A program made the translations under genes and the position numbers. Below, one piece after another: positions 33,171 through 47,384 of a stretch of 64,000 nucleotides of DNA. The notes under the pieces were generated by a model. That model ran no database searches and was not told the DNA's origin. It worked only from the letters and a program-made list of their open reading frames with translations. The DNA is taken from NCBI GenBank assembly GCA_001443005.1, contig LEKQ01000001.1:142792-206791 (forward strand), given 5' to 3'. The stretch is from a bacterium GBS-1 (GTDB lineage Bacteria > Synergistota > GBS-1). Each line of letters opens with the position of its first letter. Within the stretch, counting starts at the first letter, position 1.

Positions 33171-33196
33171 GGGTGATATGATTTTAACAAGAGGTG

Positions 33197-34220: not shown

Positions 34221-34571
34221 GTGATTTCATTGAAGCTTAAAGAGGTTATGAACACCCTAGAAGCTAAAATCTACACTGGGGAAGAGCTTCTTGAAAGAGA
34301 AATCAGTTTTGGTTGTGCATCAGATATGATAAGTGATATTCTAGCATTAGCTAAACCTGGTTCACTTTTGCTTACAGGTATAATCGCCCCCCAGATAATA
34401 AGGATAGCGAAAATACTAGATCTATCTGGAATAGTTATTGTTAGGGGTAAAGAGCCCATGGAAGAAACAATAGCTAAAGCAAAAGAAGAAAGGGTTCCCC
34501 TCTTAGGAACTAAATTTCTTTTATTTGATGCTTGTGGAAAACTTTACGAGAAAGGGCTAAGGGGTACATGA
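34221..34571 (+). CDS. DRTGG domain protein
   Basis: 116 aa, with GIVIVRG and the DRTGG-type C-terminus (...KGLRGT). Confidence 0.6.
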   Translation: MISLKLKEVMNTLEAKIYTGEELLEREISFGCASDMISDILALAKPGSLLLTGIIAPQIIRIAKILDLSGIVIVRGKEPMEETIAKAKEERVPLLGTKFLLFDACGKLYEKGLRGT

Positions 34572-35527
34572 GCGAGATAGAGCTTGATTTAATAAGCCAC
34601 CTAAGCGAATATAAAAGGATCTTTAGCTTCTTGACCGCAGAAGATATAATGAAAAAAGAGCTAATAACCTTAACTCCAGAGAACTATCTCTCTGAAGCAA
34701 GAGTTATAATGCGCGACAAGAGAATCTCAGGCATACCTATAGTAGATAAAGAAGGTAAACTTGTTGGTTTAGTTAGCACAGAGCGTATAATAAGAGCTCT
34801 CGAGGAAGGGATAATAAGCAATAAGATAAAGGAATACATGACCCCCCGAGAGAAGATCGTATACTTCAGTCCGAAAGATACCTTCGAAAAAATCGTAGAA
34901 ACCTTTGAAAGATATAGATACGGCAGATATCCTGTGATAGACGAGCATAACAAACTTTTAGGCCTTATAACCAAGCACGACATCTTAAGGGCTATCCTAA
35001 AACAGTTTCATTCAATATATATTCACGACAGAAGGAGAGAAGAGTATCTAAATAGGGAAGTTTCCATTCTTGCAAGTGATAAGTTTATAGAAGACAAGGC
35101 CTCTTTCAGATATGATATAAATACCCAATCCATATCAGAAGCAGGAGAGGGAACAGCCCTTCTAAAGAAGGTATTGGAAAAAAGAGGATATCATAGAGAT
35201 TTCATCAGAAGAGTAAGCATAGGGACATATGAAGCAGAGGTAAATGTAGTGATACACGCGGGAGGAAAGGGCTTGATATTAGCTTTTTTTGAAGAAGATG
35301 GTGTTGTAGTTTTTGTCAGGGACTGGGGGCCAGGAATAGAAGATATAGATTTAGCGATGAAAGAAGGTTTCTCAACCGCACCAGATCATATAAGGGAGCT
35401 GGGCTTTGGGGCTGGTATGGGATTACCAAATATGAGAAGAGCTGCTGACAGACTTGTAATACTATCGCAAAGTGGGAAAGGGACTAGAGTAGAAATGGTA
35501 TTCAACCTAAAGGAGGGAAGAGATTGA
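34568..35527 (+). CDS. CBS-pair sensor fused to GHKL (HATPase_c) ATPase domain
   Basis: Two CBS motifs (ISGIPIVDKEGKLVGLVS; YPVIDEHNKLLGLITKHD). C-terminal ATP-binding Bergerat fold (DWGPGIED...GFGAGMGLP). Confidence 0.7.
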   Translation: MSEIELDLISHLSEYKRIFSFLTAEDIMKKELITLTPENYLSEARVIMRDKRISGIPIVDKEGKLVGLVSTERIIRALEEGIISNKIKEYMTPREKIVYFSPKDTFEKIVETFERYRYGRYPVIDEHNKLLGLITKHDILRAILKQFHSIYIHDRRREEYLNREVSILASDKFIEDKASFRYDINTQSISEAGEGTALLKKVLEKRGYHRDFIRRVSIGTYEAEVNVVIHAGGKGLILAFFEEDGVVVFVRDWGPGIEDIDLAMKEGFSTAPDHIRELGFGAGMGLPNMRRAADRLVILSQSGKGTRVEMVFNLKEGRD

Positions 35528-35859
35528 AAGTAAGGGAGATCATTGAGATTTTAGATTGCGAGGTCCTAACCGGAAACGTAAATCTAGAGGAAGAAGTAAA
35601 ATACGGTTACACAAGTGACCTTCTAAGCGAAGTTATAGGCAAAGCACATCCAGACTCGGTTTGGATTACTATACAAAGTCACCTAAACATCGTTGCTGTA
35701 GCAGTATTGGTAGGTATAAAGGCAATTGTAGTCTGTGAGGGGAAAACAGTAGATCCCAAAGTAGTAGAAAAAGCTATTCAAGAAAAGGTAGCTATAATAA
35801 CTACAAGAGAAAACTCATTCAGAACTTCTGGAAAGCTATACGAAGCTGGACTAAGATAA
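35524..35859 (+). CDS. DRTGG domain protein
   Basis: 111-aa paralogue of 34221 ending ...KLYEAGLR. Confidence 0.6.
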   Translation: MKVREIIEILDCEVLTGNVNLEEEVKYGYTSDLLSEVIGKAHPDSVWITIQSHLNIVAVAVLVGIKAIVVCEGKTVDPKVVEKAIQEKVAIITTRENSFRTSGKLYEAGLR

Positions 35860-35884: not shown

Positions 35885-36616
35885 ATGTGGTATAAAGCTG
35901 ACCTCCACGTTCATACGGTGCTTTCGGCCTGTGCGGACTGGGAAATGACCCCAACCAACATAGTGCACAGAGCCAAGGAGGTAGGGTTAAACATATTAGC
36001 TATTACTGATCACAATACCGTTAAGAATGTGGGAGCAGGCATTAGAGCAGGTCAAAGAGAAAACATCTTGGTTATACCAGGTGTGGAGATACAAACGAAA
36101 GAAGAAGTCCATATAATAGCTCTTTTCCCCTCTGAAGAAAAAGCCCTCGCGTTTGAAGAATGGTTAAAACCCCTCTTGCCTAATTTAAACAATGATGAGG
36201 ATCTCTTTGGAGTCCAAGTTGTAGTAGATGAAGAAGACAACGTAGTAGAGATAGATAAGAGATTACTCCAAATCTCTGCTAATGCTTCAATAGAGGAAGT
36301 TATGCTTAAAGTGAAGCAACTGGATGGAGTGGCTTATCCAGCTCACATAAACAGAGATTTTTGTGGAATTATACCCACCCTAGGTTTTATTCCCCCTGAT
36401 CTCCCATTTAAAATACTCGAAATTAACCATAACACTGATCTTTCATCTTTCCTCAAAACCCATCCAGAGTTAAACGATTACGTAATATTAATTTCATCAG
36501 ATGCACATTTTCTATCATCTATAGGAAACTCAAGAACGGCCATATACCTACGAAATTTAAGCTCCAGCGAGTTAATTGAAGCAATTCAAGACAAAAGGAG
36601 GGTTAAAGTATGGTAA
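35885..36616 (+). CDS. PHP-domain phosphoesterase
   Basis: DLHVHTVLSACAD...ILAITDHN is the PHP metal-binding signature. Confidence 0.75.
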   Translation: MWYKADLHVHTVLSACADWEMTPTNIVHRAKEVGLNILAITDHNTVKNVGAGIRAGQRENILVIPGVEIQTKEEVHIIALFPSEEKALAFEEWLKPLLPNLNNDEDLFGVQVVVDEEDNVVEIDKRLLQISANASIEEVMLKVKQLDGVAYPAHINRDFCGIIPTLGFIPPDLPFKILEINHNTDLSSFLKTHPELNDYVILISSDAHFLSSIGNSRTAIYLRNLSSSELIEAIQDKRRVKVW

Positions 36617-37083
36617 AATTATCAAAAGAGAAGCTTGATAAAGTTGAAACCATATTGGATCGCTTTCCTAAAGGGCAGTCATCGTTAATAGGGGCTCTTC
36701 ATGCAATACAGCTTGAAATAGGTTATCTTCCAGAGGAAGTCCAAAAGCTTGTGGCTGAAAAACTTGAAATTCCAGAAAGCACCGTCTACGGTGTTGTAAC
36801 ATTTTACAACTTTTTCCGTAAAGAACCCGTCGGAAAGTATATAATAACCGCTTGTCAGGGAACAGCTTGTCACGTGAGGGGAGCAGGAAGCGTAATCGAA
36901 GCTTTCGAAAAAACCCTAGGAATAAAGGTAGGGCATACAACACCAGATGGAAAGTTTACGCTTGACATAGCAAGATGTTTCGGCGCATGTGGATTAGCAC
37001 CTGTTGTTATGGTCAATAACGATATATATGGAAGGATGAGCCCAAAGAAGGTAGAAGAAGTAATAGCAAAATACAGAGATTAA
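36610..37083 (+). CDS. NuoE/HoxE/HydC-like [2Fe-2S] thioredoxin-fold subunit (copy 1)
   Basis: CQGTACH...CFGACGLAPV four-Cys pattern of NuoE/HndA. Confidence 0.85.
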   Translation: MVKLSKEKLDKVETILDRFPKGQSSLIGALHAIQLEIGYLPEEVQKLVAEKLEIPESTVYGVVTFYNFFRKEPVGKYIITACQGTACHVRGAGSVIEAFEKTLGIKVGHTTPDGKFTLDIARCFGACGLAPVVMVNNDIYGRMSPKKVEEVIAKYRD

Positions 37084-37634
37084 TGGAGGAACTATCTCTA
37101 CACCTAATAGACTTAATTGAAAACTCTATAAGCGCTAAAGCCTCTTTAATAAAGATCCTTATCGAAGTAAGTAAATCAAACGATCTAATAAAGATAGTTA
37201 TAGAAGATAACGGAGAGGGTATGAATGAAGAGGAAATCGAAAAGGCAAAAGATCCATTCTTCACAACCAAAAAGAACAAAAAAGTTGGTTTAGGTATTCC
37301 TATATTTGCTCAAATTGTTGAGTCTTGCGGAGGAAGATTTGAAATCGTTAGCCAAAAGGGGAAGGGAACAAAAGTCAACGCTGAGATGAAGCTTAGTCAC
37401 ATAGATCGCCCCCCATTGGGAGATCTCGCTTCAACCTTATTCACATCTATAATAGGGCACCCTGATGTAGACTTTTTAATAAAGATAAAGACTGATGAAG
37501 GAATCGTTGAGATCAACACAGCAGAAATTAAAGAGTTTTTGGGGGAAAGCTCCTTCAACCATCCTGAGGTTATAATCTTTTTAAGAGAGAACATTGATAG
37601 AGAAATAAAAGGCATACTGAAAGGAGGTATATAA
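37083..37634 (+). CDS. histidine-kinase-like ATPase (HATPase_c only) associated with hydrogenase operon
   Basis: N/G1/G2 boxes (IEDNGEGM; GLGIP). No sensor or DHp domain. Conserved position after NuoE, as in bifurcating hydrogenase operons. Confidence 0.7.
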   Translation: MEELSLHLIDLIENSISAKASLIKILIEVSKSNDLIKIVIEDNGEGMNEEEIEKAKDPFFTTKKNKKVGLGIPIFAQIVESCGGRFEIVSQKGKGTKVNAEMKLSHIDRPPLGDLASTLFTSIIGHPDVDFLIKIKTDEGIVEINTAEIKEFLGESSFNHPEVIIFLRENIDREIKGILKGGI

Positions 37635-37986: not shown

Positions 37987-40900
37987 ATGACCCTTAAAGG
38001 AGGCGGTGAGAAATTGCCTAAGAGAACTGACCTTCTAATATGTTTGGGAGCGGGTTGCGTTTCCTCGGGCAGTGAGCTTATAAAGAAAAAGCTTGAAGAA
38101 AAAATAAGAGAAAAAGGACTTGAGAATGAAGTAAGAATTATAGGTACAGGTTGCATGGGTCCTTGTGAAAGGGGACCCGTTATAATGATATACCCAGAGG
38201 GGGTATTTTACCAGAGGATAACCTTAGAAGATGTCGACACTATCGTTGAACAGCATCTGCTTAAAGGGAAGATCGTTGAAAAGCTTCTCCCCAAGGAAGA
38301 ATTAGCCCCAAGCATTAAAGAAAAAGAAATTCCATTCTTCACCAAACAGAAGAAGATAGTTTTATCTAACTGCGGTATTATAGATCCAGAGAAGATAGAA
38401 GAATACATAGCGGTAAACGGATACGAAGCTTTAGCCCGCGTTCTTGAAGGCATGACTCCAGAGCAAGTTATAGCAGAAATAGAAAAGTCTGGATTAAGAG
38501 GCAGAGGTGGCGCCGGATTTCCTACAGGAGCTAAATGGAAGTTTGTGAGAAACGCCCAAGGCAAGCCTAAATTCGTCGTATGTAACGCTGACGAAGGAGA
38601 CCCGGGTGCCTTTATGGACAGAGCGGTATTGGAAGGAGACCCTCACGCTGTCTTAGAGGGAATGCTTATCGCCGCTTATGCCGTAGGAGCGGAGCAAGGG
38701 TACATCTACGTGAGAGCTGAGTATCCCTTAGCCATAAAGAGGCTTCAAATAGCTATAGACCAAGCTCGTAAGTACGGATTCTTAGGGAAGAACATACTGG
38801 ATACGGACTTCTCCTTTGATATAGAGCTCAGAATCGGAGCTGGAGCTTTCGTCTGTGGAGAGGAAACAGCTTTACTTGCCTCCATAGAGGGTAAAAGAGG
38901 CATGCCAAGATCAAAGCCTCCATTTCCAGCAACTCATGGACTTTGGGGTAAACCTACCTTGATAAACAACGTAGAAACCTATGCCAACGTGAGGCATATT
39001 ATACTTAACGGTGCAGACTGGTTTAGAAGTTTTGGAACCCCATCATCTCCTGGAACAAAAGTATTCGCCCTATCTGGAAAGGTTAGGAACACAGGCTTAA
39101 TAGAAGTTCCCATGGGGACAACTCTTGGAGAGATTGTTTTCGACATAGGGGGCGGAATAATAGGAGATAGAAAGTTTAAGGCTGCACAAACGGGAGGTCC
39201 TTCAGGAGGTTGCTTGACTGTTAAGCACCTTAACCTACCGTTAGATTATGAATCTGTGAAAGAAGCAGGAGCAATAGTTGGCTCAGGCGGACTCATAGTC
39301 GTCGATGAAACTACATGCATGGTTGAACTTGCTCGTTACTTTCTAGAATTCTGTCAAGAAGAATCCTGTGGCAAATGTACACCATGCAGAGTAGGAACTA
39401 AAAAGATGCTCGAGATCCTTGAAAGAATAATTCATGGAAAAGGAACACTTGAAGACTTAGATAGGCTTGAGGAAATTGGAATGTGGGTTCAGCAAACCGC
39501 TCTCTGTGGATTAGGGCAAACGGCTCCCAACCCAGTCCTAAGCACTCTTAAATACTTCAGAGACGAATATGAAGCACATATTATAGATAAAAGATGTCCA
39601 GCTGGGGTCTGTGCCGACCTATTTATAGCTCCTTGCGAAAACGCTTGCCCAGCTCACGTGGACGTCCCAGCCTACATAGCTCACATCTCAGAAGGGAGAT
39701 TCAAGGAGGCCTTCTACGTACACATAAAGAATAATCCGTTCCCATCGGTATGCGGTAGAGCTTGTCCAGCACGCTGTGAAAGCTATTGTAGAAGACTTCA
39801 GGTAGATGAATCCATAGCGATAAGACAGCTCAAGAGATTTATGGCAGATAAGGCTATTGAGGAAAAGTGGGAGCTTCCTAAACCTGAAAGATATAACGGC
39901 AAGAAAGTGGCCATAGTTGGAGCTGGTCCTGCAGGATTAAGCGCAGCTTACTTCCTCAACCTTAAAGGATATAAGGTCACCGTCTTCGAAGCCCTTCCTG
40001 AACCTGGAGGAACCCCTACTCACTATATCCCTGAATATCGTCTACCAAAGGAAATAATCCTGGAAGAGGTAAGAAGAATAGAGAGATCTGGAGTCGAGAT
40101 AAGGGTCAATCACCCAATAACTGATTTAGAAGCCCTTAGAAAAGACTATGACGCAGTTTTCTTAGCGTGTGGAAGCATGAAAGAGACGAAGCTTAACGTT
40201 CCTGGAGAGAACCTGAAGGGAGTCCTAAGTGGCATGGAATTCCTAGGTAAAGTCAAGAAGGGAGAGAAGCCAGATATAGGCAAGAAAGTAGTAGTCATAG
40301 GAGGAGGAAACACAGCTATCGATGCTGCAAGAACGGCTTGGAGATTGGGAGCAGACGTTCATGTTATCTATAGAAGAACGAGAGATGAAATGCCAGCCCT
40401 TCATGAAGAAATAGAGGAAGCAGAAAGAGAGGGAATAAAGTTCACGTTCCTTGCAACACCAGTTAAGTTCCTAGAGGAAGATGGAAGGGTTAGAGCTGTT
40501 AGATGTATAAGCATGAAACTTGGAGAGTTTGACTCAACTGGTAGAAGAAAACCCATACCGATAGAAAACTCGGAATTCGATGTAGAAGCTACAAGCGTCA
40601 TAGTAGCAGTTGGACAAAGAGCTGACCTCGCGTTTAAGGTAGATGGTCTTGAACTAACCAGTTGGGGAACTATAAAGGTTGACCTAAGAACGCTTAAAAC
40701 CTCCTTGGAAGGGGTCTTCGCAGGCGGAGATGTTGTTCGTGGACCTTCAACAATCGTAGAAGCTGTAGCTGATGGAAGGTTAGCAGCTTCAATGATAGAC
40801 AAATACCTTGGTGGAGATGGTATACTATGGTACGAAAGTAGGGAATCAGTGAAAACCACATATAATGAGGAAGAATATCTCAAAACCCAGCCAAGGAGAA

Positions 40901-41040
40901 AGCCTGTTATCCTACCAGTAGATAGAAGAAGGAACTTCGCTGAGGTAGAAAAAACTTTCTTTGAAGGACAAGCTGTGGAAGAAGCAAGAAGATGTTTACA
41001 CTGTGACATAAAAGAGGAGGTCTTATTAGAAGAGGGGTGA
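37987..41040 (+). CDS. NuoF-like flavoprotein fused to GltD-like NAD(P)H:FAD oxidoreductase (1017 aa)
   Basis: N-terminal 2Fe-2S Trx-like domain (CLGAGC...CMGPCERGP). NuoF core (GLRGRGGAGFPTG; ESCGKCTPCR). GltD-type Fe-S region (CPAHVD...CGRACPARCE). Two dinucleotide folds (VAIVGAGPAG; VVVIGGGNTAIDAA). Confidence 0.85.
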   Translation: MTLKGGGEKLPKRTDLLICLGAGCVSSGSELIKKKLEEKIREKGLENEVRIIGTGCMGPCERGPVIMIYPEGVFYQRITLEDVDTIVEQHLLKGKIVEKLLPKEELAPSIKEKEIPFFTKQKKIVLSNCGIIDPEKIEEYIAVNGYEALARVLEGMTPEQVIAEIEKSGLRGRGGAGFPTGAKWKFVRNAQGKPKFVVCNADEGDPGAFMDRAVLEGDPHAVLEGMLIAAYAVGAEQGYIYVRAEYPLAIKRLQIAIDQARKYGFLGKNILDTDFSFDIELRIGAGAFVCGEETALLASIEGKRGMPRSKPPFPATHGLWGKPTLINNVETYANVRHIILNGADWFRSFGTPSSPGTKVFALSGKVRNTGLIEVPMGTTLGEIVFDIGGGIIGDRKFKAAQTGGPSGGCLTVKHLNLPLDYESVKEAGAIVGSGGLIVVDETTCMVELARYFLEFCQEESCGKCTPCRVGTKKMLEILERIIHGKGTLEDLDRLEEIGMWVQQTALCGLGQTAPNPVLSTLKYFRDEYEAHIIDKRCPAGVCADLFIAPCENACPAHVDVPAYIAHISEGRFKEAFYVHIKNNPFPSVCGRACPARCESYCRRLQVDESIAIRQLKRFMADKAIEEKWELPKPERYNGKKVAIVGAGPAGLSAAYFLNLKGYKVTVFEALPEPGGTPTHYIPEYRLPKEIILEEVRRIERSGVEIRVNHPITDLEALRKDYDAVFLACGSMKETKLNVPGENLKGVLSGMEFLGKVKKGEKPDIGKKVVVIGGGNTAIDAARTAWRLGADVHVIYRRTRDEMPALHEEIEEAEREGIKFTFLATPVKFLEEDGRVRAVRCISMKLGEFDSTGRRKPIPIENSEFDVEATSVIVAVGQRADLAFKVDGLELTSWGTIKVDLRTLKTSLEGVFAGGDVVRGPSTIVEAVADGRLAASMIDKYLGGDGILWYESRESVKTTYNEEEYLKTQPRRKPVILPVDRRRNFAEVEKTFFEGQAVEEARRCLHCDIKEEVLLEEG

Positions 41041-41047: not shown

Positions 41048-41512
41048 ATGATTGGAGAGATCCTGAAGAGGTTCGAGCCGAGGAGAGAGAATCTATTGGA
41101 TATACTTCATGCCATGCAAGAAGCATCACCCACCAACAGCCTTTCAAAAGAAGACATAGAAGCTGTTGCTAAGTATGTCGGTATAACACCAGCAGAAGTC
41201 TGGGGAACCGCTACATTTTACTCCATGTTCTCTGTCAAACCTAGAGGAAAGTACGTAATAAGGGTCTGTACCTCACCAGCTTGTCATCTATTAGGAGGAG
41301 AAAGCGTCTTAGAAGCACTTAAAAGGGAACTGGGAATCGATGTAGGAGAAACGACGAAGGACGGAGTTTTCACACTGGAAACCTCGAGCTGCTTAGGAAT
41401 TTGCGGTGTAGCTCCGGCTATGATGATAGATGAAATAGCATATGGGAACCTCACCCCTGAGAAAATTAAAGAGATAATTCTTAGCTATAGAAAGAGGGGA
41501 GAAGAATCATGA
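41048..41512 (+). CDS. NuoE/HydC-like [2Fe-2S] subunit (copy 2)
   Basis: CTSPACH...CLGICGVAPA four-Cys motif. Confidence 0.85.
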   Translation: MIGEILKRFEPRRENLLDILHAMQEASPTNSLSKEDIEAVAKYVGITPAEVWGTATFYSMFSVKPRGKYVIRVCTSPACHLLGGESVLEALKRELGIDVGETTKDGVFTLETSSCLGICGVAPAMMIDEIAYGNLTPEKIKEIILSYRKRGEES

Positions 41513-43074
41513 TAAGAATAGAAAGGGCGCATATTCTCGTCGGCATAGATCAGGGCTCGATCTTAGCTGGAGCAAGGGACGTCCAAAAAAAGCTCGAGGA
41601 AGAGATTAAAAAGCGCGGTCTTGAAACCGAAATAAGAGTCCTTGAAACGGGAAGCCTTGGAATAACAGGAAGGGGAGTCGTTCTTCTAGTTTACCCCGAA
41701 GGCGTATATTACGTTAACGTAAAAGTTGAGGATGTTCCAGAAATAGTGGAAGAACACCTGCTTAAGGGCAGATTCGTTAAACGTCTCATGCTCGAACCTC
41801 AACTGGCAGAAATCCTCGCTAAAGGAGAGTTTCCTAAAAAACTCTCAAAGCAAAAAAGGGTGGTTCTTCAAAATGCAGGTGTTATAAATCCAGACAGCAT
41901 AGAAGAATACATTGCTGTTGGAGGATACGAAGCTTTAGCTAAGGCTCTTGAGTCATCTCCAGAGTGGGTTATAAACGAAATAGATAACTCAGGCTTAAGA
42001 GGCAGAGGTGGTGCTGGATTCCCAACAGGGAAGAAATGGAAGTTCACTGCTGAAGTTAAAGCTCCTCAGAAGTTCATAATATGTAATGCAGATGAAGGAG
42101 AACCAGGTACTTTCAAAGATAGGCTTATACTTGAAGGTGATCCTCACAAGGTCCTTGAAGGCATGGCCATCGCAGGCTACGCAGTAGGTGCAAACAAGGG
42201 CTATCTCTATATAAGAGGTGAATATGACCTGTCTATTCGTAGGATAAGCAAAGCTATAGAAGATGCTTATAAGATGGGATTACTTGGTGATAACGTATTG
42301 GATAGCGGCTTTTCCTTCCATGTGGAAATTAAGAAGGGAGCAGGTGCCTATGTATGCGGAGAGGAAACGGCCTTAATAGAGTCTATAGAGGGGAAGAGGG
42401 GAAATCCTCGTCCCAAACCACCTTACTACCCTGGTATAAAGGGACTTTGGGGGTATCCTACAGTGGTAAATAACGTTGAAACCTTAGCTAATGTCCCTCC
42501 AATAATACTGAACGGAGCAAGTTGGTTTAAGAGTATGGGAACGAAGGAATCCCCAGGCACCAAGGTTTACACCATCTTAGGACATGTTAAAGAACCAGGG
42601 TTAATAGAAGTAGAAATGGGAACAACGCTTAGAGAAGTTATCTTTGAGTTTGGTAAGGGAATGAGAAATAATAGAGAATTCAAAGCTGCACTAATAGGGG
42701 GAGCGGCGGGAGCTTTCTTAGGGAAAGAAGCCCTTGATATCCCTCTATCCTATGAAGGTCTTAGGGAGTATGGGGGAGTCTTAGGATCAGGAGCTATCCT
42801 TGTGCTTGATGACTCGACATCAATCACCGATATGCTACAAAACGTGATATCCTTCTTCAAACATGAAAGTTGCGGGAAGTGTGTCCCGTGCCGAGTAGGA
42901 ATTACTAAGCTACTTGAAAGGATGGAGAAAGGTACCCTACTTGAAAAAGATCTCAAGGAAATGATAGAGATATCAGAAAAGATGGCCGATACAGCACTTT
43001 GTGCTTTAGGCCAATCGTTAATTCTTCCCGTATCAAGTGCAGTCCGTTTCTTCAAAGAAGAACTTACAGCATAG
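41509..43074 (+). CDS. NuoF/HydB-like NADH-binding flavoprotein subunit (copy 2)
   Basis: GLRGRGGAGFPTGKKW and ESCGKCVPCR. The N-terminal Trx-like domain lacks Cys and there is no C-terminal ferredoxin domain. Confidence 0.85.
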   Translation: MIRIERAHILVGIDQGSILAGARDVQKKLEEEIKKRGLETEIRVLETGSLGITGRGVVLLVYPEGVYYVNVKVEDVPEIVEEHLLKGRFVKRLMLEPQLAEILAKGEFPKKLSKQKRVVLQNAGVINPDSIEEYIAVGGYEALAKALESSPEWVINEIDNSGLRGRGGAGFPTGKKWKFTAEVKAPQKFIICNADEGEPGTFKDRLILEGDPHKVLEGMAIAGYAVGANKGYLYIRGEYDLSIRRISKAIEDAYKMGLLGDNVLDSGFSFHVEIKKGAGAYVCGEETALIESIEGKRGNPRPKPPYYPGIKGLWGYPTVVNNVETLANVPPIILNGASWFKSMGTKESPGTKVYTILGHVKEPGLIEVEMGTTLREVIFEFGKGMRNNREFKAALIGGAAGAFLGKEALDIPLSYEGLREYGGVLGSGAILVLDDSTSITDMLQNVISFFKHESCGKCVPCRVGITKLLERMEKGTLLEKDLKEMIEISEKMADTALCALGQSLILPVSSAVRFFKEELTA

Positions 43075-43089
43075 GAGGTGTTTAATACT

Positions 43090-44928
43090 GTGAGAGAGGT
43101 AAAACTCAAGATAGACGGAAAGGAAGTTATAGCAACAGAAGGCATGACAATACTTGAAGCAGCAAGAAAGGCTGGTTTTGAAATTCCTACTCTTTGCTAT
43201 CACGATGGATTATCTGCACATGGTGGATGCAGACTCTGTGTAGTCGAAGTTAAAGGTTCTCCAAGGCTTCTAACAAGCTGTACCACCCCTGTAACCAACG
43301 GAATGGAGGTATCTATAAACACAGACCGTGTTAAAGAGGCTCGTAAATTCGTAATGAACCTTATAATGACCGAAAGAAACCACTTCTGCATGTTCTGCGA
43401 AAAAAGCGGAAGATACGAAGAAACCGATTGTGAACTTCAAAAGAGAGCTTACGAAGTCCAGATAGAACACTTCCCGTTCCCAGTATATGTTAATAAATAT
43501 CCAATAGACACAACGTCACCAGTTATGGTAATGGACCACAACCGTTGCATACTCTGTGGCAGATGTGTTAGAGTCTGTTCGGAAGTCGTAGCTAACTCAA
43601 CCTTAGACTTCAGCTTCAGAGGTTCAAAAGCCTTGATAGCTTCAGATACAGGCTTGAACAGGGGGGAATCAAGCTGCATATCCTGTGGAGCTTGCATGCA
43701 AGTATGTCCTGCGGGAGCGTTGTTCAGCAAGTTTGGAGGATATAAAGGAAAGAAGAGCTTGTGCGAAAAGATAGAAACATTCTGCCCCATATGTGGTGTC
43801 GGTTGTGAAACAACCAACTATGTGCGTTATAACAACATAGTTGAGATAGAGGGAAGCGGTCTGGCTAAGGGAAACTTAGATGGAGGGCAGCTCTGCGAAA
43901 AAGGAAGATACGGTCCCTTGATGGAAACGAGGAACAGGATATCTCTTCCGCTCCTTAGGGATTCCAGAGGAAGATTTGTAGAAAGTAGCTACCAGGAAGC
44001 AATAAACAAAAGTATACAGCTGCTTAAAGCCTATTCCCCAGACAAGATAGTCTTCAGAGTCTCTTCCTTCCTACCAGCGGAAGACCTAGCCTACATAAAA
44101 GGGTTCGCTCTCAAGCTTGGAGTAAAAGATATAGACACCTTCGATGGAGAAATATATAGGAATTTGATATCTTTCGATTACCCTAAAGCGAACTACGAAG
44201 ACATCCTTAACTCAGACCTAATCATACTTGTGGGTGGCGACATTGTGAAAGAACATGGAGTGGTTGGATCTTACATAAGGAGAGCCGTTAGGAATAAAGG
44301 CGCTGAATTAATCATAATCTCTCCAGCAGAAAGCAAGATGGATAGATTCTCCAAGGAGGTAAGGAGAGTTGCGGAAGGCAGTGAAGGTTCAGTCGTCAAA
44401 GAATATGAGGAGAAAATAAGGAAAGCTTCTAACCCAGTGATAATTCTTGAGGGCGCTTATCTTCTTAAAAACAGGGAAGCAATAGAATCATGGCTTAAAT
44501 TCGCTGAAGCGTCAAAGGTTAAAACTCTACCTCTACCCCCCACAGGTAACAGCTTAGCAGCTTGGAAGCTAGGTATATCGTCTAAATCCAACGAGAATAC
44601 AGAATCCGGAAAACTTCTTTTCCTCATCCTCGGAGATATAGATTCTAGCTACTCACCCGCATCCTTAGCTGAGCTAGGCTTCGAAGCAATAATACTCCAT
44701 GGAGCTTATATAGACCCGATGATGAAGCTAGCTGATGTCGTTTTGCCTGGAAAAAGTTGGCTTGAAAATGAAGGAACATATAAGCTAATAAGCGGAGAAG
44801 TTAAGAAGTTTACGCCTATACTCCGGGCAGAAAAGGATGCGAAGAGCCCAAGGGAGCTACTTTCTGAGCTTGCAGACGCCTTAAGATTAGGTAAAATTGA
44901 TATAGATAGTTTAATTACAAGTTTGTAA
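43090..44928 (+). CDS. NuoG/HydA-like Fe-S subunit (2Fe-2S + 4Fe-4S N-terminus, truncated molybdopterin-like C-domain)
   Basis: CYHDGLSAHGGCRLCVV; CILCGRCVRVC; CISCGACMQVCP. No H-cluster motifs. GTG at 43090 has AGGAGGTG upstream; the track start at 43078 overlaps the SD. Confidence 0.8.
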   Translation: MREVKLKIDGKEVIATEGMTILEAARKAGFEIPTLCYHDGLSAHGGCRLCVVEVKGSPRLLTSCTTPVTNGMEVSINTDRVKEARKFVMNLIMTERNHFCMFCEKSGRYEETDCELQKRAYEVQIEHFPFPVYVNKYPIDTTSPVMVMDHNRCILCGRCVRVCSEVVANSTLDFSFRGSKALIASDTGLNRGESSCISCGACMQVCPAGALFSKFGGYKGKKSLCEKIETFCPICGVGCETTNYVRYNNIVEIEGSGLAKGNLDGGQLCEKGRYGPLMETRNRISLPLLRDSRGRFVESSYQEAINKSIQLLKAYSPDKIVFRVSSFLPAEDLAYIKGFALKLGVKDIDTFDGEIYRNLISFDYPKANYEDILNSDLIILVGGDIVKEHGVVGSYIRRAVRNKGAELIIISPAESKMDRFSKEVRRVAEGSEGSVVKEYEEKIRKASNPVIILEGAYLLKNREAIESWLKFAEASKVKTLPLPPTGNSLAAWKLGISSKSNENTESGKLLFLILGDIDSSYSPASLAELGFEAIILHGAYIDPMMKLADVVLPGKSWLENEGTYKLISGEVKKFTPILRAEKDAKSPRELLSELADALRLGKIDIDSLITSL

Positions 44929-44949: not shown

Positions 44950-45489
44950 TTGGCTAAGGTAAGGGTTGCCACTACATGGCTCGAGTGTTGTTCAGGATGT
45001 CACATGTCCATTCTAGACTTGGATGAAAAATTAGTTGACTTACTATCCAAGATAGAGTTCGATGCAAGTCCAATAACAGATATAAAAGAGTTTGGCGAAG
45101 TAGATGTGGGAATAGTAGAGGGTTCTGTCGGAAATGAAGAACAACTTGAGGTGCTGAAGAAGATACGCGAAAAGGCCAAAATCCTTATAGCCCTTGGTGA
45201 TTGTGCTTGTTTCGGAGGCATACCTGCCATGAGGAATTTCTTCAACAAAGATGAGGTGCTAAAGAGGGTCTACATCGAAACTGAAAGCACTGTTAACCCA
45301 AGCAAGGTTATACCAAGCTTAGATGTTCCTAAGATATTTCCAAGCGTTAAATCTATAGATCAATTTGTTAAGGTTGACGTTTATATACCCGGATGCCCAC
45401 CAGACCCAAGAGCTATAGAATACGCTATAAAGGAGCTCCTTGAAGGCAAGATACCCGTATTACCGCCAGAGCTCTTATCGTATGAATGA
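44950..45489 (+). CDS. [NiFe]-hydrogenase small subunit (group 3, HoxY/HydS-like)
   Basis: WLECCSGCHMS proximal cluster motif and GDCACFGG. 179 aa. Confidence 0.9.
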   Translation: MAKVRVATTWLECCSGCHMSILDLDEKLVDLLSKIEFDASPITDIKEFGEVDVGIVEGSVGNEEQLEVLKKIREKAKILIALGDCACFGGIPAMRNFFNKDEVLKRVYIETESTVNPSKVIPSLDVPKIFPSVKSIDQFVKVDVYIPGCPPDPRAIEYAIKELLEGKIPVLPPELLSYE

Positions 45490-45504
45490 GGAGGTGCTTG
45501 TTCT

Positions 45505-46932
45505 GTGGAACAAAGGATAGAAGTTTTTCCCGTAACCAGAGTCGAGGGACATGGAAAGATAACAATTCATTTAAATGAATCAGGAAAAGTAGAAAAGACC
45601 TTCTTCCATGTAACCCAAATAAGAGGGTTCGAGAAGTTCTGCGAGGGAAGGGTCTTCTGGGAAATGCCTGTAATGACACAAAGAGCTTGTGGAATCTGTC
45701 CTGTAAGTCACCATCTTGCCTCAGCTAAGGCTACAGATAAGATCCTAGGAGTAGAGATACCACCGACAGCTAAAAAGCTCAGAGAGCTTATGCATATGGG
45801 GCAGTTAGTTCAATCTCATTCATTACACTTCTTCCATTTAGCAAGCCCAGATCTCTTACTGGGAATGGATGCTGATCCTAAAATAAGAAATATCGTAGGA
45901 GTGATAGAAAAACACCCCGATCTTGCTGTAAGAGGAGTTAAACTAAGAAAGTATGGACAAGAAGTAATAAAGACCCTTAGTGGGAAAAGGATTCATCCGC
46001 GCTTCGCTATACCAGGTGGGGTTAACAAAGGACTTTCCATAGAAGAAAGAGATATGCTTTTGAGAGACATAGATTGGGTAATAGATAGCCTTAGAGACAC
46101 GGTTAAGCTTATCAAAAATCTCGCTGAGAATTGGGGAGAAAGGTTCAGAAGGTTTGCTTCCTTCCCTTCTTTCTATATGGGGCTCGTTGATGAAAATGGG
46201 AATCTAGACCTATATCATGGCAAGATAAGGCTTTGTGACCATCGTGGAAGAATTATAGATGAGTTCAGCGAGGATAACTACCTTGAAAAGATAGGTGAAT
46301 GGGTTGAGCCTTGGTCTTACATGAAGTTTCCATTCTATAAAGAGCTTGGCTACCCAGAGGGAAGCTACAGAGTAGGTCCATTGGCAAGACTAAATTGCTG
46401 TGATGATATTTCCACTCCCTTAGCTAAAGAGGAACTAACAGCCTTTCGCCAAATGATAGGAGACAAGGTAGCAGAAGGGTCGCTATTCTACCACTATGCA
46501 AGAATGATAGAAGCTTTACATGCTGCTGAACGTTTAAAGGAACTCCTAGAAGACCCAGATATAACTGGGACAGAACTTCGAGCAGTAAGTAGAGAGTTCA
46601 AACCCGAGGGTATAGGAGTTTTAGAGGCACCCAGAGGAACCCTAATTCATCATTATAAGGTGAACGAAAACGGCGAAATAGTAAAGGCCAACCTAATAGT
46701 AGCGACGGTTCATAACAACCACGCCATGAACAAGGCCGTTGAACTTATAGCAAAAGAGTACATTAAGGGACCGGAGATAAAGGAAGGATTCCTAAACATG
46801 CTTGAGGTAGCGATAAGATGCTATGACCCATGCCTTTCATGCGCCACTCATGCTCTTGGAAAGATGCCTCTTCAGGTTATCATCTACGATGCTGAAGGTA
46901 ATAAGGTTAACGAGCTGGTGAGAAATCACTGA
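45505..46932 (+). CDS. [NiFe]-hydrogenase large subunit (group 3, HoxH/HydL-like)
   Basis: N-terminal RACGICPVSHH and C-terminal DPCLSCATH Ni-binding motifs. Confidence 0.95.
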   Translation: MEQRIEVFPVTRVEGHGKITIHLNESGKVEKTFFHVTQIRGFEKFCEGRVFWEMPVMTQRACGICPVSHHLASAKATDKILGVEIPPTAKKLRELMHMGQLVQSHSLHFFHLASPDLLLGMDADPKIRNIVGVIEKHPDLAVRGVKLRKYGQEVIKTLSGKRIHPRFAIPGGVNKGLSIEERDMLLRDIDWVIDSLRDTVKLIKNLAENWGERFRRFASFPSFYMGLVDENGNLDLYHGKIRLCDHRGRIIDEFSEDNYLEKIGEWVEPWSYMKFPFYKELGYPEGSYRVGPLARLNCCDDISTPLAKEELTAFRQMIGDKVAEGSLFYHYARMIEALHAAERLKELLEDPDITGTELRAVSREFKPEGIGVLEAPRGTLIHHYKVNENGEIVKANLIVATVHNNHAMNKAVELIAKEYIKGPEIKEGFLNMLEVAIRCYDPCLSCATHALGKMPLQVIIYDAEGNKVNELVRNH

Positions 46933-47384
46933 TTGCAGTAGTAGGATATGGAAACTACTTGAGAAAAGACGATGGCATAGGTCTGTGGCTTGGAAGCAGG
47001 TTAAGGCTAAAGTTTAAACAAAAAGTAAGAGTTTACCTTTTGCATCAGTTGGTACCTGAAATCGTTGAGGAGCTCAAGGAAGCCGATCACATAATATTCA
47101 TAGATGCTTCATCTTCAAATGAAGAGTGGTCATTAAGAAGGCTCAGTTTAGGGGAGGAAGAGTTTCAACCTCCCCTAAATTGTGATTTTCATACCTTCTA
47201 TCCGGAAGAGCTGGCTTATCTACTAAAAAGACTTTATGGGAAGAAGCCGGAAATCTGGATATTAAGCGTGAAAGGTGAGAATTTTTCTTTTGGGGCTGGC
47301 TTAAGCTTAAATGCACGAAGATTGGCAAAGGAAGCAGAAAACCTGCTTGAGGGATTGATAAGGGTGAAACTAAAAGATGCATGA
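46929..47384 (+). CDS. hydrogenase maturation endopeptidase (HoxW/HycI family); apparent CTG start overlapping hoxH stop
   Basis: The conserved N-terminus IAVVGYGNYLRKDDGIG lies upstream of the first TTG/ATG. In-frame CTG at 46929 is embedded in CTGA with the large-subunit stop. Confidence 0.7.
   Translation: MIAVVGYGNYLRKDDGIGLWLGSRLRLKFKQKVRVYLLHQLVPEIVEELKEADHIIFIDASSSNEEWSLRRLSLGEEEFQPPLNCDFHTFYPEELAYLLKRLYGKKPEIWILSVKGENFSFGAGLSLNARRLAKEAENLLEGLIRVKLKDA

What the first reader, a model, noticed from the sequence alone, without database searches (positions are those of the whole stretch)
37987..41040. 1017-aa NuoF::GltD fusion flavoprotein
A single ORF contains four parts. First, a Cys-bearing thioredoxin-like 2Fe-2S domain. 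Second, a complete NuoF (51-kDa) FMN/NADH/4Fe-4S core. Third, a GltD-type di-cluster region. Fourth, the two Rossmann folds of NADPH-dependent glutamate-synthase small-subunit-like oxidoreductases. That gives two different nicotinamide sites plus FMN and FAD in one polypeptide. It is placed with its own NuoE inside a hydrogenase operon. This is the cofactor layout expected for NADH/NADPH/ferredoxin confurcation.
Basis: seen in the sequence. Interest (0 to 1): 0.6.

Follow-up and report, generated by a model that had tools for sequence, protein, structure and literature searches.

The report
Hydrogenase flavoprotein with built-in NADPH module
This gene is real: it encodes the NADH-binding subunit of an electron-bifurcating [NiFe] hydrogenase whose usual ferredoxin-docking end is replaced by an NADPH/FAD module, a widespread variant noted once in silico (2024) but never tested, which probably links H2 to NADH and NADPH without free ferredoxin.

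Summary
Full-length homologues occur in more than 120 protein clusters and at least 50 species-level genomes from over 15 phyla. An 85%-identical orthologue sits in an identical operon.

The protein is not a generic NuoF::GltD. It is the B subunit (HydB/BfuB) of an Acetomicrobium mobile-type NiFe-HydABCSL hydrogenase. Its first 546 residues are about 70% identical to A. mobile HydB. Directly after the conserved Zn-site motif, the ferredoxin-like C-terminal domain (clusters B3/B4, where ferredoxin is reduced) is replaced. The replacement is a StnC/NfnA-type GltD-like module with two [4Fe-4S] clusters, FAD and an NADP(H) motif.

The FAD-proximal cluster has the Lys ligand typical of non-bifurcating StnC, not the Glu of bifurcating NfnB. 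My best reading, which is inferred, is that NADP(H) replaces ferredoxin on the low-potential branch, giving H2 <-> NADH + NADPH.

The architecture was already noted in silico as "sub-type I BfuB" of [FeFe] hydrogenases (Zheng & Huang 2024). Not reported in the papers I could search are the [NiFe] and formate-dehydrogenase partners and an unexplained extra NuoE2/NuoF2 pair of complex-I type. I found no biochemistry for this family.

The parts
34221..35859 (+). Regulatory-looking genes that precede HydABC-type operons: DRTGG (34221-34571), CBS+HATPase (34532-35527), DRTGG (35524-35859)
   Evidence: Pfam. The same gene order lies upstream of related operons (L007, L034, L036, L043, L058, L066 and others; L083).
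35885..36616 (+). PHP-domain protein
   Evidence: Pfam PHP 3.2e-9. It is conserved in related operons.
36610..37083 (+). NuoE1 = HydC/BfuC-like [2Fe-2S] subunit, the presumed partner of the fusion (C1 cluster)
   Evidence: Pfam 2Fe-2S_thioredx 4.5e-53. Best PDB hits are HydC 8a6t_C at 5.7e-48 and A. mobile 7t2r_C at 1.3e-41. A NuoE gene is adjacent to 51 of 56 fused genes.
37083..37634 (+). HisK-like ATPase (the 'hisK' of hyd operons)
   Evidence: Pfam HATPase_c 2.9e-16. In A. mobile, hisK and hydD are in the operon but not in the holoenzyme (PMC9304861).
37635..37985 (+). HydD-like small protein with a thioredoxin-like-ferredoxin signal but no cysteine
   Evidence: NCBIfam fdxn_Clost 3.9e-7. 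The translation contains no Cys.
37987..41040 (+). HydB(BfuB)::GltD-like fusion flavoprotein (1017 aa from the ATG; probably 1008 aa from TTG 38014)
38023..38286 (+). N-terminal thioredoxin-like domain with the B5 [2Fe-2S] ligands Cys19, Cys24, Cys56, Cys60
   Evidence: Pfam. It aligns to A. mobile HydB residues 5-100. Cys56/60 are present in 77/77 fused homologues and Cys19/24 in 61/77.
38374..39579 (+). NuoF-type core: FMN/NAD(H) site and B1 [4Fe-4S] (Cys461/464/467/507), with the Bfu-type loop EGDPGAFMD
   Evidence: Complex1_51K, SLBB and NADH_4Fe-4S. About 70% identity to 7t2r_B. Ala208 and Met210 are invariant, against Thr and Lys in NuoF2 and complex I.
39577..39633 (+). Zn (B2) site motif His531-x5-Cys537-x4-Cys542 (with Cys444), followed immediately by the fusion junction
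   Evidence: These ligands correspond to A. mobile H525/C531/C536/C438 and T. sibiricus H524/C529/C534/C437 (PMC9304861; PMC12018979). They are 77/77 conserved.
39592..39867 (+). GltD-type di-cluster region. FAD-proximal (A7-like) cluster: Cys554, Cys593, Cys597, Lys616. Distal (A6-like) cluster: Cys550, Cys601 plus Cys1003/Cys1006. An extra Cys589 is also present.
   Evidence: Fer4_20. Residue-by-residue alignment to C. saccharolyticus NfnA (9bov_A) and StnC (8oh5_C) is. A7 ligands come from PMC11829005.
39901..40776 (+). FAD Rossmann fold (GAGPAG, residues 645-650) and NADP(H) Rossmann fold (GGGNTA 772-777; YRR 795-797)
   Evidence: Pyr_redox_2 9.9e-42. The GxGxxA motif is read as NADP(H)-specific in StnC (PMC7483475). 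It is conserved in 76-77 of 77.
40993..41004 (+). C-terminal Cys1003-x2-Cys1006 in the 'EEARRCLHC' tail, which folds back to the di-cluster region
   Evidence: It aligns to the 'EA.RCLxC' tail of the GltD-like domain in 9bov_A, 9n5u_A and 8oh5_C and is 77/77 conserved.
41048..41512 (+). NuoE2, a second NuoE/HydC-like [2Fe-2S] protein
   Evidence: Pfam 1.4e-48; PDB hits.
41509..43074 (+). NuoF2, a short complex-I/Hox-type flavoprotein (521 aa). It has FMN and B1 only: no N-terminal Cys, no Zn site, no C-terminal domain.
   Evidence: It belongs to a separate clade in the NJ tree.
43078..44928 (+). HydA (BfuA), a NuoG-like Fe-S subunit with a cofactor-less molybdopterin-like domain
   Evidence: Pfam. 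Best PDB hit is A. mobile 7t2r_A at 1.9e-104.
44950..46932 (+). [NiFe] hydrogenase small subunit HydS (44950-45489) and large subunit HydL (45505-46932)
   Evidence: Pfam Oxidored_q6 and NiFeSe_Hases. HydL's best PDB hit is A. mobile 7t2r_D at 1.3e-190.
46959..48396 (+). Maturation genes: hydrogenase protease (46959-47384), HypA (47377-47730), HypB (47731-48396)
   Evidence: TIGR00072 at 58.9 bits; Pfam HypA and cobW/HypB.

Best explanation
The gene encodes the flavoprotein (B) subunit of a Bfu-family, A. mobile-type [NiFe] hydrogenase (HydABCSL). This part is shown. The N-terminal 546 residues keep everything that marks a bifurcating HydB: the FMN/NAD(H) site with the Bfu-type loop, B1 [4Fe-4S], the B5 [2Fe-2S] domain and the His/Cys3 Zn site. 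Directly after the Zn motif, the ferredoxin-like C-terminal domain (clusters B3/B4) is replaced by a StnC/NfnA-type GltD-like module with two [4Fe-4S] clusters, FAD and an NADP(H)-type Rossmann fold. In solved Bfu enzymes that C-terminal domain takes low-potential electrons from the mobile [2Fe-2S] of HydC and passes them to ferredoxin. The next part is inferred. The module's distal [4Fe-4S] (first ligand Cys550, 8 residues after Zn ligand Cys542) occupies the B3/B4 position. The low-potential branch then runs FMN -> C1 (NuoE1) -> 2x[4Fe-4S] -> FAD -> NADP+. The enzyme behaves as a Bfu core with a hard-wired ferredoxin:NADP+ oxidoreductase. The complex would couple H2 (via HydL/S/A and B1) reversibly to NAD(H) at FMN and NADP(H) at FAD: 2 H2 + NAD+ + NADP+ <-> NADH + NADPH + 2 H+, without free ferredoxin. 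The FAD acts as a simple 2e/1e converter, not a second bifurcation site. From textbook physiological potentials (NADH about -280 mV, NADPH about -380 mV), this would allow H2 evolution up to about 1e-3 bar H2, or direct NADPH supply from H2. Confidence in the identity and anatomy is about 0.9. Confidence in NADP(H) replacing ferredoxin is about 0.4.
For: Identity. The best solved relatives of HydB, HydC, HydA and HydL are all chains of A. mobile NiFe-HydABCSL (7t2r_B 9e-246, 7t2r_C 1.3e-41, 7t2r_A 1.9e-104, 7t2r_D 1.3e-190). Replacement. Unfused HydBs continue after CPAxVC with a CxxCxxCxxxCP ferredoxin domain, whereas fused ones continue with PCxNxCP of the GltD module. Role of the lost domain. 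C1 -> B3 -> B4 -> Fd is the low-potential path, and ferredoxin binds between the HydC C-terminal domain and the B-subunit Fd-like domain, 12.8 A from B3/B4 (PMC11829005; PMC12018979). Module type. It is closest to the GltD-like domain of NfnA/StnC (1.1e-131, 8.3e-129, 3e-106), with the Lys ligand (69/77; His in 8) that marks non-bifurcating StnC against Glu in NfnB (PMC12018979). All cluster, FAD and NADP(H) motif residues are 76-77/77 conserved. The fused B can be the only flavoprotein: in L085 (67% identity) the operon is just NuoE-fusion-HydA-HydS-HydL, and T. toyohensis has HydC-HisK-HydD-fusion-[FeFe]HydA. Where the partner could be classified, it is an H2- or formate-type subunit (about -420 mV): 19 [FeFe], 6 [NiFe] and 8 Fdh-like of 56, while 15 have unclassified NuoG-like partners. 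Stand-alone Fer4_20+Pyr_redox_2 proteins are proven ferredoxin:NADP+ oxidoreductases (PMC12221290). No ferredoxin gene lies in the operon. The AF2 model is confident (pLDDT 82.7, pTM 0.76).
Against: No biochemical data exist for any member of this family. Bifurcating to an acceptor at about -380 mV wastes much of the driving force a Bfu core can generate. Ferredoxin might still dock on the GltD clusters, as it does on NfnB. In this operon a second NuoE2/NuoF2 pair exists whose role is unknown, so the fusion may not be the flavoprotein that contacts HydA here.
Confidence: 0.42

Rival explanations
1. This operon makes two separate enzymes. NuoE2-NuoF2-HydA-HydS-HydL would be a Hox-like, non-bifurcating NAD-linked [NiFe] hydrogenase. 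NuoE1 plus the fusion would be a stand-alone two-subunit NADPH:NAD+ (or NADPH:ferredoxin/NAD+) oxidoreductase, a minimal Stn-like transhydrogenase lacking an A subunit.
For: The gene order E2-F2-A-S-L mirrors HoxEFUYH. NuoF2 has the complex-I/Hox signature (EGEPGTFKD) and lacks every Bfu-specific cluster and the Zn site. The fusion with NuoE1 already contains both nicotinamide sites. A BfuA-less 'Type 4' class of Bfu enzymes is accepted (PMC9304861).
Against: In L085 and at least 40 other loci the fused B is the only flavoprotein next to HydA, HydASL or FdhA. The same E2F2 pair is also added to operons with ordinary HydB (L058, L059, L066, L072), so it looks like an add-on to a HydABC-type complex. 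The fusion's core and the HydA/S/L proteins are all closest to the same A. mobile complex.
Confidence: 0.2
2. The complex has two bifurcation centres. This is the proposal of Zheng & Huang 2024 and, in effect, of the first reader. The FAD of the GltD module would be a second, Nfn-like bifurcating flavin, ferredoxin would dock on the GltD clusters, and the complex would couple NADH, NADPH, ferredoxin and H2.
For: The module is homologous to bifurcating NfnB/NfnL (4ylf_B 9.1e-99, 5jca_L 3e-98). NfnB's own [4Fe-4S] pair reduces ferredoxin. PMC11406978 raises this possibility for the same architecture.
Against: The diagnostic fourth ligand of the FAD-proximal cluster is Lys (69/77) or His (8/77), never Glu. 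StnC, which has the same Lys, was shown experimentally not to bifurcate. There is no NfnA-like [2Fe-2S]/FAD partner to take the high-potential electron. The module is closer to StnC/NfnA than to NfnB and shares their C-terminal CxxC tail.
Confidence: 0.13
3. The hydrogenase is uncoupled and dual-cofactor. The GltD module would simply add an NADPH entry/exit to the Fe-S wire, so the enzyme reduces or oxidises NAD(H) or NADP(H) independently, with no energetic coupling and no bifurcation.
For: Loss of the ferredoxin-reducing domain could mean loss of bifurcation altogether. Both pyridine nucleotides have the same standard potential. Non-bifurcating HydB relatives exist (PMC7311640).
Against: Non-bifurcating HydB homologues lose the His/Cys Zn site, the DPGAFMD loop and the N-terminal cluster domain (PMC9304861; NuoF2). 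The fusion keeps all of them at 77/77 conservation, which argues that the gating machinery is still in use.
Confidence: 0.15
4. The fusion is artificial, created by a frameshift, sequencing error or mis-assembly.
For: None was found.
Against: All 120 listed clusters are full length at 56-100% identity. The identical sequence is on 5 contigs from NCBI, JGI, Logan and ENA. There are 56 fused genes in species-level genomes. The alignment is ungapped across the junction, with fully conserved flanking Cys. The orthologous operon is syntenic at 85% identity.
Confidence: 0.01

Closest known systems
Acetomicrobium mobile NiFe-HydABCSL (NiFe-Bfu; PDB 7t2r/7t30)
   Same: The subunit set is the same (HydC, HydB, HydA, HydS, HydL), and hisK and hydD lie in the operon. 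Every subunit here has its best solved relative in that complex. The HydB core, Zn site, B1 and B5 ligands are conserved.
   Different: The ferredoxin-like C-terminal domain of HydB (B3/B4) is absent and replaced by a 470-residue FAD/NADP(H)/2x[4Fe-4S] module. An extra NuoE2/NuoF2 pair is inserted between hydB and hydA. A. mobile Cys476 is not conserved (Ile482 here).
Sub-type I BfuB of group A3 [FeFe] hydrogenases (Zheng & Huang 2024, mSystems, PMC11406978)
   Same: The domain architecture is the same: the B3/B4 domain is replaced by DPD_II (two [4Fe-4S]) plus a C-terminal FAD/NAD(P) domain. It is reported in Hydrogenedentota, Spirochaetota, Planctomycetota, Verrucomicrobiota, Thermodesulfobacteriota and others. 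My scan finds the same phyla.
   Different: It was described only in silico and only with [FeFe] HydA. Here the partner is a [NiFe] HydA-S-L module, and in other loci a formate-dehydrogenase-type A subunit. Those authors suggest a second bifurcating FAD, whereas the Lys ligand found here argues against that.
StnABC / NfnABC (Nfn-Bfu transhydrogenase; PDB 8oh5, 9bov, 9n5u)
   Same: The BC core is the same. The GltD-like module type is the same (45-55% identity, Lys-ligated proximal cluster, C-terminal CxxC tail, GxGxxA NADP(H) motif). NADPH, NAD and Fe-S wiring sit in one complex.
   Different: There the module is inserted in the NuoG-like A subunit and feeds the mid-potential branch (A7-A6-A3-A2-A1-B1), and the B subunit keeps its ferredoxin domain. 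Here it is fused to B in place of that domain, and the A subunit carries a hydrogenase.
NfnAB / NfnSL (bifurcating NADH-dependent ferredoxin:NADP+ oxidoreductase)
   Same: The C-terminal half is homologous to NfnB/NfnL (3e-98 to 9e-99; Foldseek TMt 0.77 to 5jca_L).
   Different: There is no NfnA/NfnS partner. The cluster ligand is Lys, not Glu. The CxxC ligands are supplied from the C-terminal tail.
Cac_0764-type [4Fe-4S]/FAD ferredoxin:NADP+ oxidoreductases (PMC12221290)
   Same: The domain pair is the same (Fer4_20 + Pyr_redox_2), acting as a non-energy-conserving Fe-S-to-NADP+ converter. This is the function I assign to the fused module.
   Different: Those are free-standing enzymes that take electrons from soluble ferredoxin. 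Here the module is covalently attached to the electron source.
Hox / soluble NAD-reducing [NiFe] hydrogenase (HoxEFUYH; PDB 5xf9)
   Same: NuoE2-NuoF2 resemble HoxE/HoxF-type non-bifurcating diaphorase subunits. HydL hits 5xf9_D at 2.2e-138.
   Different: HydA is 616 aa with a molybdopterin-like domain, unlike the roughly 240-aa HoxU. The operon also carries a full bifurcating-type BC pair.

Membership tests
Bfu family, B subunit (HydB/BfuB) | NuoF-type FMN/NAD(H) core with B1 [4Fe-4S] and the Bfu-specific loop residues (A. mobile A202, M204) | tested here: met
   Complex1_51K and NADH_4Fe-4S. Cys461/464/467/507, Ala208 and Met210 are 77/77 conserved. Identity to 7t2r_B is about 70%.
Bfu family, B subunit (HydB/BfuB) | His/Cys 'B2' (Zn) site, absent from non-bifurcating homologues | tested here: met
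   His531, Cys444, Cys537 and Cys542 are 77/77 conserved. They correspond to H525/C438/C531/C536 and H524/C437/C529/C534.
Bfu family, B subunit (HydB/BfuB) | N-terminal thioredoxin-like domain carrying B5 ([2Fe-2S] or Zn) | tested here: met
   Pfam 2Fe-2S_thioredx at 13-89, and four Cys are present.
Bfu family, B subunit (HydB/BfuB) | C-terminal 2x[4Fe-4S] ferredoxin-like domain (B3/B4; InterPro IPR017896 was used to define BfuB) | tested here: not met
   No Fer4-type domain follows residue 546. Fer4_20 and Pyr_redox_2 take its place. By the strict 2022 definition it is therefore not a canonical BfuB.
Bfu family, B subunit (HydB/BfuB) | Adjacent BfuC (NuoE-like, C1 [2Fe-2S]) and a BfuA partner | tested here: met
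   NuoE1 is at 36610-37083 and HydA at 43078-44928. A NuoE gene is adjacent in 51 of 56 fused loci.
Bfu family, B subunit (HydB/BfuB) | Catalyses electron bifurcation with NAD(H), ferredoxin and a third substrate | not testable with these tools
   This requires the purified enzyme.
Sub-type I BfuB (Zheng & Huang 2024) | B3/B4 domain replaced by DPD_II (Fer4_20) plus a C-terminal FAD/NAD(P)-binding domain | tested here: met
   One search compared with the description.
Sub-type I BfuB (Zheng & Huang 2024) | Encoded in a group A3 [FeFe] hydrogenase BfuAB(D)C cluster | tested here: not met
   The partner here is NuoG-like HydA plus [NiFe] HydS/HydL. [FeFe] partners are found in other loci.
NiFe-HydABCSL (A. 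mobile type) | Five subunits A, B, C, S, L, each homologous to the A. mobile proteins | tested here: met
   HydS was identified by Pfam and NCBIfam only.
NiFe-HydABCSL (A. mobile type) | HydB with a ferredoxin-reducing C-terminal domain; reaction 2 H2 + NAD+ + Fd(ox) | tested here: not met
   The C-terminal domain is absent. The reaction is not testable here.
StnABC / NfnABC (Nfn-Bfu) | GltD-like domain with a Lys-ligated FAD-proximal [4Fe-4S], a C-terminal CxxC tail and an NADP(H) GxGxxA motif | tested here: met
   Lys616, Cys554/593/597, Cys1003/1006 and G772-x-G774-x-x-A777.
StnABC / NfnABC (Nfn-Bfu) | The GltD-like domain is inserted in the NuoG-like A subunit, and B keeps its ferredoxin domain | tested here: not met
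   The module is at the C-terminus of B. HydA here (616 aa) has no Pyr_redox or Fer4_20 domain.
NfnAB / NfnSL large subunit (bifurcating NfnB/NfnL) | Glu ligand on the FAD-proximal cluster, and an adjacent NfnA/NfnS gene | tested here: not met
   The aligned position holds Lys or His, never Glu. No NfnA-like gene was found among the window ORFs annotated.
Glutamate synthase small subunit (GltD proper) | Partner GltB large subunit encoded nearby | tested here: not met
   No Glu_synthase/GltB-type domain was found in the operon or in the other large ORFs of the window. TIGR01317/TIGR01318 scores are below their cut-offs.
Respiratory complex I NuoF | Stand-alone protein of about 420-450 aa with an EPGTFKD loop, in a nuo operon | tested here: not met
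   TIGR01959 scores 521 bits, below its 558.65 cut-off. The loop is DPGAFMD and the operon is a hydrogenase operon. The database name 'NuoF' is an over-generalisation.

The most novel reading that the evidence does not exclude
The fused B subunit may define a ferredoxin-independent branch of the Bfu family. In it, NADP(H) would be the obligatory low-potential partner of the FMN/B1/C1 bifurcation site, through a hard-wired FAD/2x[4Fe-4S] module. H2 or formate oxidation would then be coupled to simultaneous NAD+ and NADP+ reduction, or NADH + NADPH would be confurcated to H2. The family occurs in more than 15 bacterial phyla and some archaea. The window would show its most elaborate form: a [NiFe] complex with three nicotinamide sites, including an extra complex-I-type NuoEF pair that may switch the same hydrogenase between coupled and uncoupled modes.
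Probability: 0.33. Interest if true: 0.75.

Novelty: new variant of a known kind. Interest (0 to 1): 0.5.

Why it matters
How Bfu enzymes bifurcate, and how they hand low-potential electrons to ferredoxin, is an open and active question. Structures date only from 2022-2025. This protein is a natural experiment: the ferredoxin-reducing domain is swapped for an NADPH-producing module while every 'gating' feature is kept.

If NADP(H) does replace ferredoxin, it would add a new reaction class (H2 or formate <-> NADH + NADPH). It would change how redox budgets are modelled for many uncultured anaerobes, including syntrophs, Chloroflexota, Desulfobacterota, Planctomycetota and Asgard archaea. It would also offer an oxygen-sensitive but ferredoxin-free route from H2 to NADPH for biocatalysis.

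There is a practical consequence too. These 1000-aa proteins are currently annotated 'NuoF' or 'hydrogenase', and they are missed by the domain rule used to define BfuB.

Tried and rejected
- **Frameshift or artefact:** rejected on conservation and synteny.
- **True glutamate-synthase subunit:** rejected. No GltB is present, and the module is StnC/NfnA-type.
- **Promoter and terminator scan of 31.5-50.5 kb:** fewer sites than in shuffles, so it is uninformative for operon limits.
- **Rfam scan of the window:** no hits, so no rRNA or riboswitch to identify the organism. The organism remains unidentified. It is a bacterial chromosome of about 41% GC carrying NusA, IF-2, HisRS and AspRS.
- **NJ tree of HydB cores:** fused and unfused forms are interleaved. 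There are no support values and the sampling is biased, so I cannot say whether the fusion arose once or the C-terminal modules were swapped repeatedly.
- **Literature:** seven full-text searches found no biochemical study of a fused HydB. I found only the 2024 in-silico note. The library holds open-access papers only.
- **AF2 model:** it could not be used for cluster-to-cluster distances because coordinates are not returned. Foldseek found no solved chain covering both halves (maximum TMq 0.49).
- **Ferredoxin gene inside the operon:** none found. The only CxxCxxCxxxC motifs are in HydA and in a polyferredoxin ORF just upstream of the AOR gene.

Full report
**1.

ORF 37987..41040 (+) is uninterrupted for 1017 codons. 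Pfam finds, in order:
- a thioredoxin-like [2Fe-2S] domain (residues 13-89; 29.7 bits against a cut-off of 24.8)
- Complex1_51K (165-336; 2.9e-49)
- SLBB (359-408)
- NADH_4Fe-4S (448-531; 6.6e-36)
- Fer4_20 (536-627; 2.9e-23)
- Pyr_redox_2 (639-930; 9.9e-42)

NCBIfam agrees: nuoF_fam covers 134-532 and GltD-like families cover 502-1009.

The probable true start is TTG 38014, ten bases behind AAAGGAGG. This gives 1008 aa, the length of several cluster members. It also gives an N-terminus (MPKRTDLLIC) that fits the family consensus MxxRxDVLVC.

**2. The fusion is not an artefact**

- A search of 5.8 billion proteins returned only full-length (about 990-1030 aa) relatives among the best 120 clusters, at 56-100% identity. 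The identical sequence is on five contigs from four repositories.
- A scan of species-representative genomes gave 56 fused genes. They come from Desulfobacterota, Chloroflexota, Bacillota, Spirochaetota, Planctomycetota, Verrucomicrobiota, Acidobacteriota, Bacteroidota, Armatimonadota, Omnitrophota, Nitrospirota, Gemmatimonadota and Actinomycetota. Two archaeal MAGs also carry it, one of them Promethearchaeota Loki_b31.
- An 85%-identical orthologue lies in a gene-for-gene identical operon.
- Across 77 distinct fused sequences the junction is ungapped and both halves are conserved. Median identity to the window protein is 60% for the N-half and 46% for the C-half.

**3. The N-terminal half is a bifurcating-type HydB**

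- Its best solved relative is HydB of the A. mobile electron-bifurcating NiFe-HydABCSL (7t2r_B, 9e-246, about 70% identity over residues 13-546). HydB, StnB and NfnB of other Bfu enzymes follow.
- It keeps the four N-terminal Cys (B5) and the B1 ligands Cys461/464/467/507.
- It keeps the loop EGDPGAFMD, where Ala and Met are Bfu-specific. Complex I has EPGTFKD.
- It keeps His531/Cys444/Cys537/Cys542. These correspond to the 'B2' site, now assigned as Zn, that non-bifurcating homologues lack (PMC9304861; PMC11829005; PMC12018979). All are conserved 77/77.

**4. The C-terminal half is a StnC/NfnA-type GltD-like module**

- Its closest solved relatives are the GltD-like domain inserted in the A subunit of Bfu-type transhydrogenases: C. 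saccharolyticus NfnA 9bov_A (1.1e-131), T. sibiricus NfnA 9n5u_A (8.3e-129) and S. ovata StnC 8oh5_C (3e-106). These rank ahead of NfnB/NfnL and true GltD.
- Residue-by-residue, Cys554, Cys593, Cys597 and Lys616 match the A7 ligands C108, C147, C151 and K170.
- Cys550, Cys601 and the C-terminal Cys1003-x2-Cys1006 supply a second cluster. The 'EA.RCLxC' tail is shared with StnC and NfnA.
- Motifs GAGPAG (FAD), GGGNTA (GxGxxA, read as NADP(H)-specific in StnC) and YRR are essentially invariant.
- The Lys is diagnostic. Bifurcating NfnB has Glu at this position, while StnC has Lys and its FAD was shown not to bifurcate. In the fused family this position is Lys in 69 of 77 and His in 8 of 77, never Glu.

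**5. The key anatomical point: what the module replaces**

Unfused HydBs read ...H-x5-CPAxVC-x12-CxxCxxCxxxCP..., where the last motif opens the ferredoxin-like C-terminal domain with clusters B3 and B4. Fused proteins read ...H-x5-CPAGVC-xxLFxxP-CxNxCP..., which is the GltD di-cluster region. So the module replaces the C-terminal domain exactly.

In solved Bfu enzymes the mobile [2Fe-2S] of the C subunit carries low-potential electrons from the FMN site to B3/B4. Ferredoxin binds between the C-subunit C-terminal domain and this B-subunit domain, 12.8 A from B3/B4. The fusion therefore lacks the known ferredoxin-reducing domain. In its place it has a module whose stand-alone relatives are ferredoxin:NADP+ oxidoreductases.

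The AF2 model is confident (pLDDT 82.7, pTM 0.76) except for the 543-545 linker. Foldseek matches each half to HydB-type and NfnA/StnC-type chains respectively. No solved chain covers both halves.

**6. Context**

The operon reads: DRTGG, CBS-HATPase, DRTGG, PHP, NuoE1 (HydC), HisK-like, HydD-like, fusion, NuoE2, NuoF2, HydA, HydS, HydL, protease, HypA, HypB.

HydC, HydA and HydL all have their best solved relatives in the A. mobile complex. That operon also carries hisK and hydD, which are not part of the holoenzyme.

The fused B can serve as the sole flavoprotein:
- A 67%-identical relative has just NuoE-fusion-HydA-HydS-HydL.
- Thermanaeromonas toyohensis has HydC-HisK-HydD-fusion-[FeFe]HydA.

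Among the 56 fused genes, the neighbouring catalytic partner is:

| Partner | Count |
|---|---|
| [FeFe] HydA | 19 |
| [NiFe] HydA-S-L | 6 |
| Formate-dehydrogenase-type A subunit (Molybdopterin + Molydop_binding) | 8 |
| Other NuoG-like | 15 |
| Lost at a contig end | 8 |

Every partner that could be classified uses H2 or formate (about -420 mV).

**7. Mechanism**

The shown facts are the cofactor-binding anatomy, the exact domain replacement, the Stn-type Lys ligand, and the partners.

From these I infer the following. The GltD clusters sit where B3/B4 sit, because the first ligand is 8 residues after the last Zn ligand. NADP(H) would therefore replace ferredoxin at the end of the low-potential branch, with FAD as a 2e/1e converter. 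The reaction would be 2 H2 + NAD+ + NADP+ <-> NADH + NADPH + 2 H+.

This is my own estimate from textbook physiological potentials (NADH about -280 mV, NADPH about -380 mV; values as used in PMC9304861). The mean of about -330 mV equals the H+/H2 couple at about 1e-3 bar. That would allow NADH re-oxidation at roughly 30-fold higher pH2 than NADH alone, or direct NADPH supply from H2. I put about 0.4 on this model.

The rivals are:
- two separate enzymes in this particular operon (0.2)
- an uncoupled dual-cofactor hydrogenase (0.15)

The Lys ligand and the missing NfnA partner weigh against the last of these.

**8. The unexplained part**

NuoE2/NuoF2 sit between hydB and hydA. NuoF2 (521 aa) is complex-I/Hox-like: it has EGEPGTFKD, no N-terminal Cys, no Zn site, and it ends after the four-helix bundle. 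The same short clade accompanies both fused B (L003, L034, L083, L086) and ordinary HydB (L058, L059, L066, L072), and it forms its own branch in the tree. It may be an extra NADH module, or an alternative non-bifurcating diaphorase for the same hydrogenase. I found no description of it.

**9. What is known, and novelty**

The architecture has been noticed before. Zheng & Huang (2024) describe 'sub-type I BfuB' of group A3 [FeFe] hydrogenases, with B3/B4 replaced by DPD_II plus an FAD/NAD(P) domain. They state that no such enzyme has been studied.

The 2022 Bfu survey defined BfuB by a domain set that includes the Fer4 C-terminal domain, so it would have missed these proteins. My searches found no biochemical or structural study.

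Relative to that note, what I add is:
- the [NiFe] HydABCSL and Fdh-type partners
- the exact junction
- the StnC/NfnA-type identity of the module and the Lys-ligand argument against a second bifurcating flavin
- the spread to archaea
- the NuoE2F2 add-on

I file it as a new variant of a known kind, with interest 0.5. It is not surprising as a domain combination, but it is a clean and widespread natural test case for the Bfu low-potential branch.

Noticed in passing
window 41048-43074: A second NuoE2/NuoF2 pair of complex-I/Hox type (EGEPGTFKD loop, no N-terminal Cys, no Zn site, no C-terminal domain) is inserted between hydB and hydA. The same short clade recurs in HydABC-type operons with fused and with ordinary HydB (L003, L034, L058, L059, L066, L072, L083, L086).
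   Followed up: partly
window 37635-37985: The HydD-like 116-aa protein gives a thioredoxin-like [2Fe-2S] ferredoxin signal (NCBIfam 3.9e-7) but contains no cysteine at all, so it cannot bind a cluster.
   Followed up: partly
window 38014 (TTG) versus 37987 (ATG): A strong Shine-Dalgarno sequence (AAAGGAGG, 37996-38003) sits inside the first codons of the ORF, ten bases before an in-frame TTG. The real protein is probably 1008 aa.
   Followed up: yes
L012, L024, L029, L038, L045, L051, L061 (fused gene next to an 890-1030-aa protein): The same fused B subunit is paired with formate-dehydrogenase-type A subunits (Fer2_4, NADH-G_4Fe-4S_3, Molybdopterin, Molydop_binding). The variant is therefore not restricted to hydrogenases.
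   Followed up: partly
L039:10001-12997 (Promethearchaeota Loki_b31) and L049:3238-6300 (uncultured archaeon): Full-length fused B subunits (46-47% identity) occur in archaeal MAGs, next to NuoE and a small NuoG-like or [FeFe]-like protein.
   Followed up: no
window residue Cys589 of the fusion (nt 39751-39753): An extra Cys in the di-cluster region is conserved in 67 of 77 fused proteins. It is Ile, Leu or Val in StnC and NfnA. It may be an alternative ligand of the FAD-proximal cluster, comparable to Cys114 in StnC.
   Followed up: partly
window 29500-31754 and 49038-51842 (minus strand): A roughly 140-aa ORF with four CxxCxxCxxxC motifs (polyferredoxin-like) lies directly upstream of an aldehyde:ferredoxin oxidoreductase (AOR). 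A TOBE-type ABC transporter, possibly for tungstate or molybdate, flanks the hyd operon on the other side. The AOR is not present at this position in the 85% relative (L083).
   Followed up: no
window 32025-34180: A DAO-family FAD oxidoreductase and an ornithine cyclodeaminase/mu-crystallin protein lie between the AOR and the hyd operon and are conserved in L083/L084. This suggests an amino-acid-fermenting lifestyle.
   Followed up: no
L014:about 5000-9000 and L033: These are intermediate HydB forms of about 552-560 aa. L014_HydB_552 has N-terminal Cys and the CPAGVC motif, but a complex-I-type EPGTFKD loop and no C-terminal domain.
   Followed up: no
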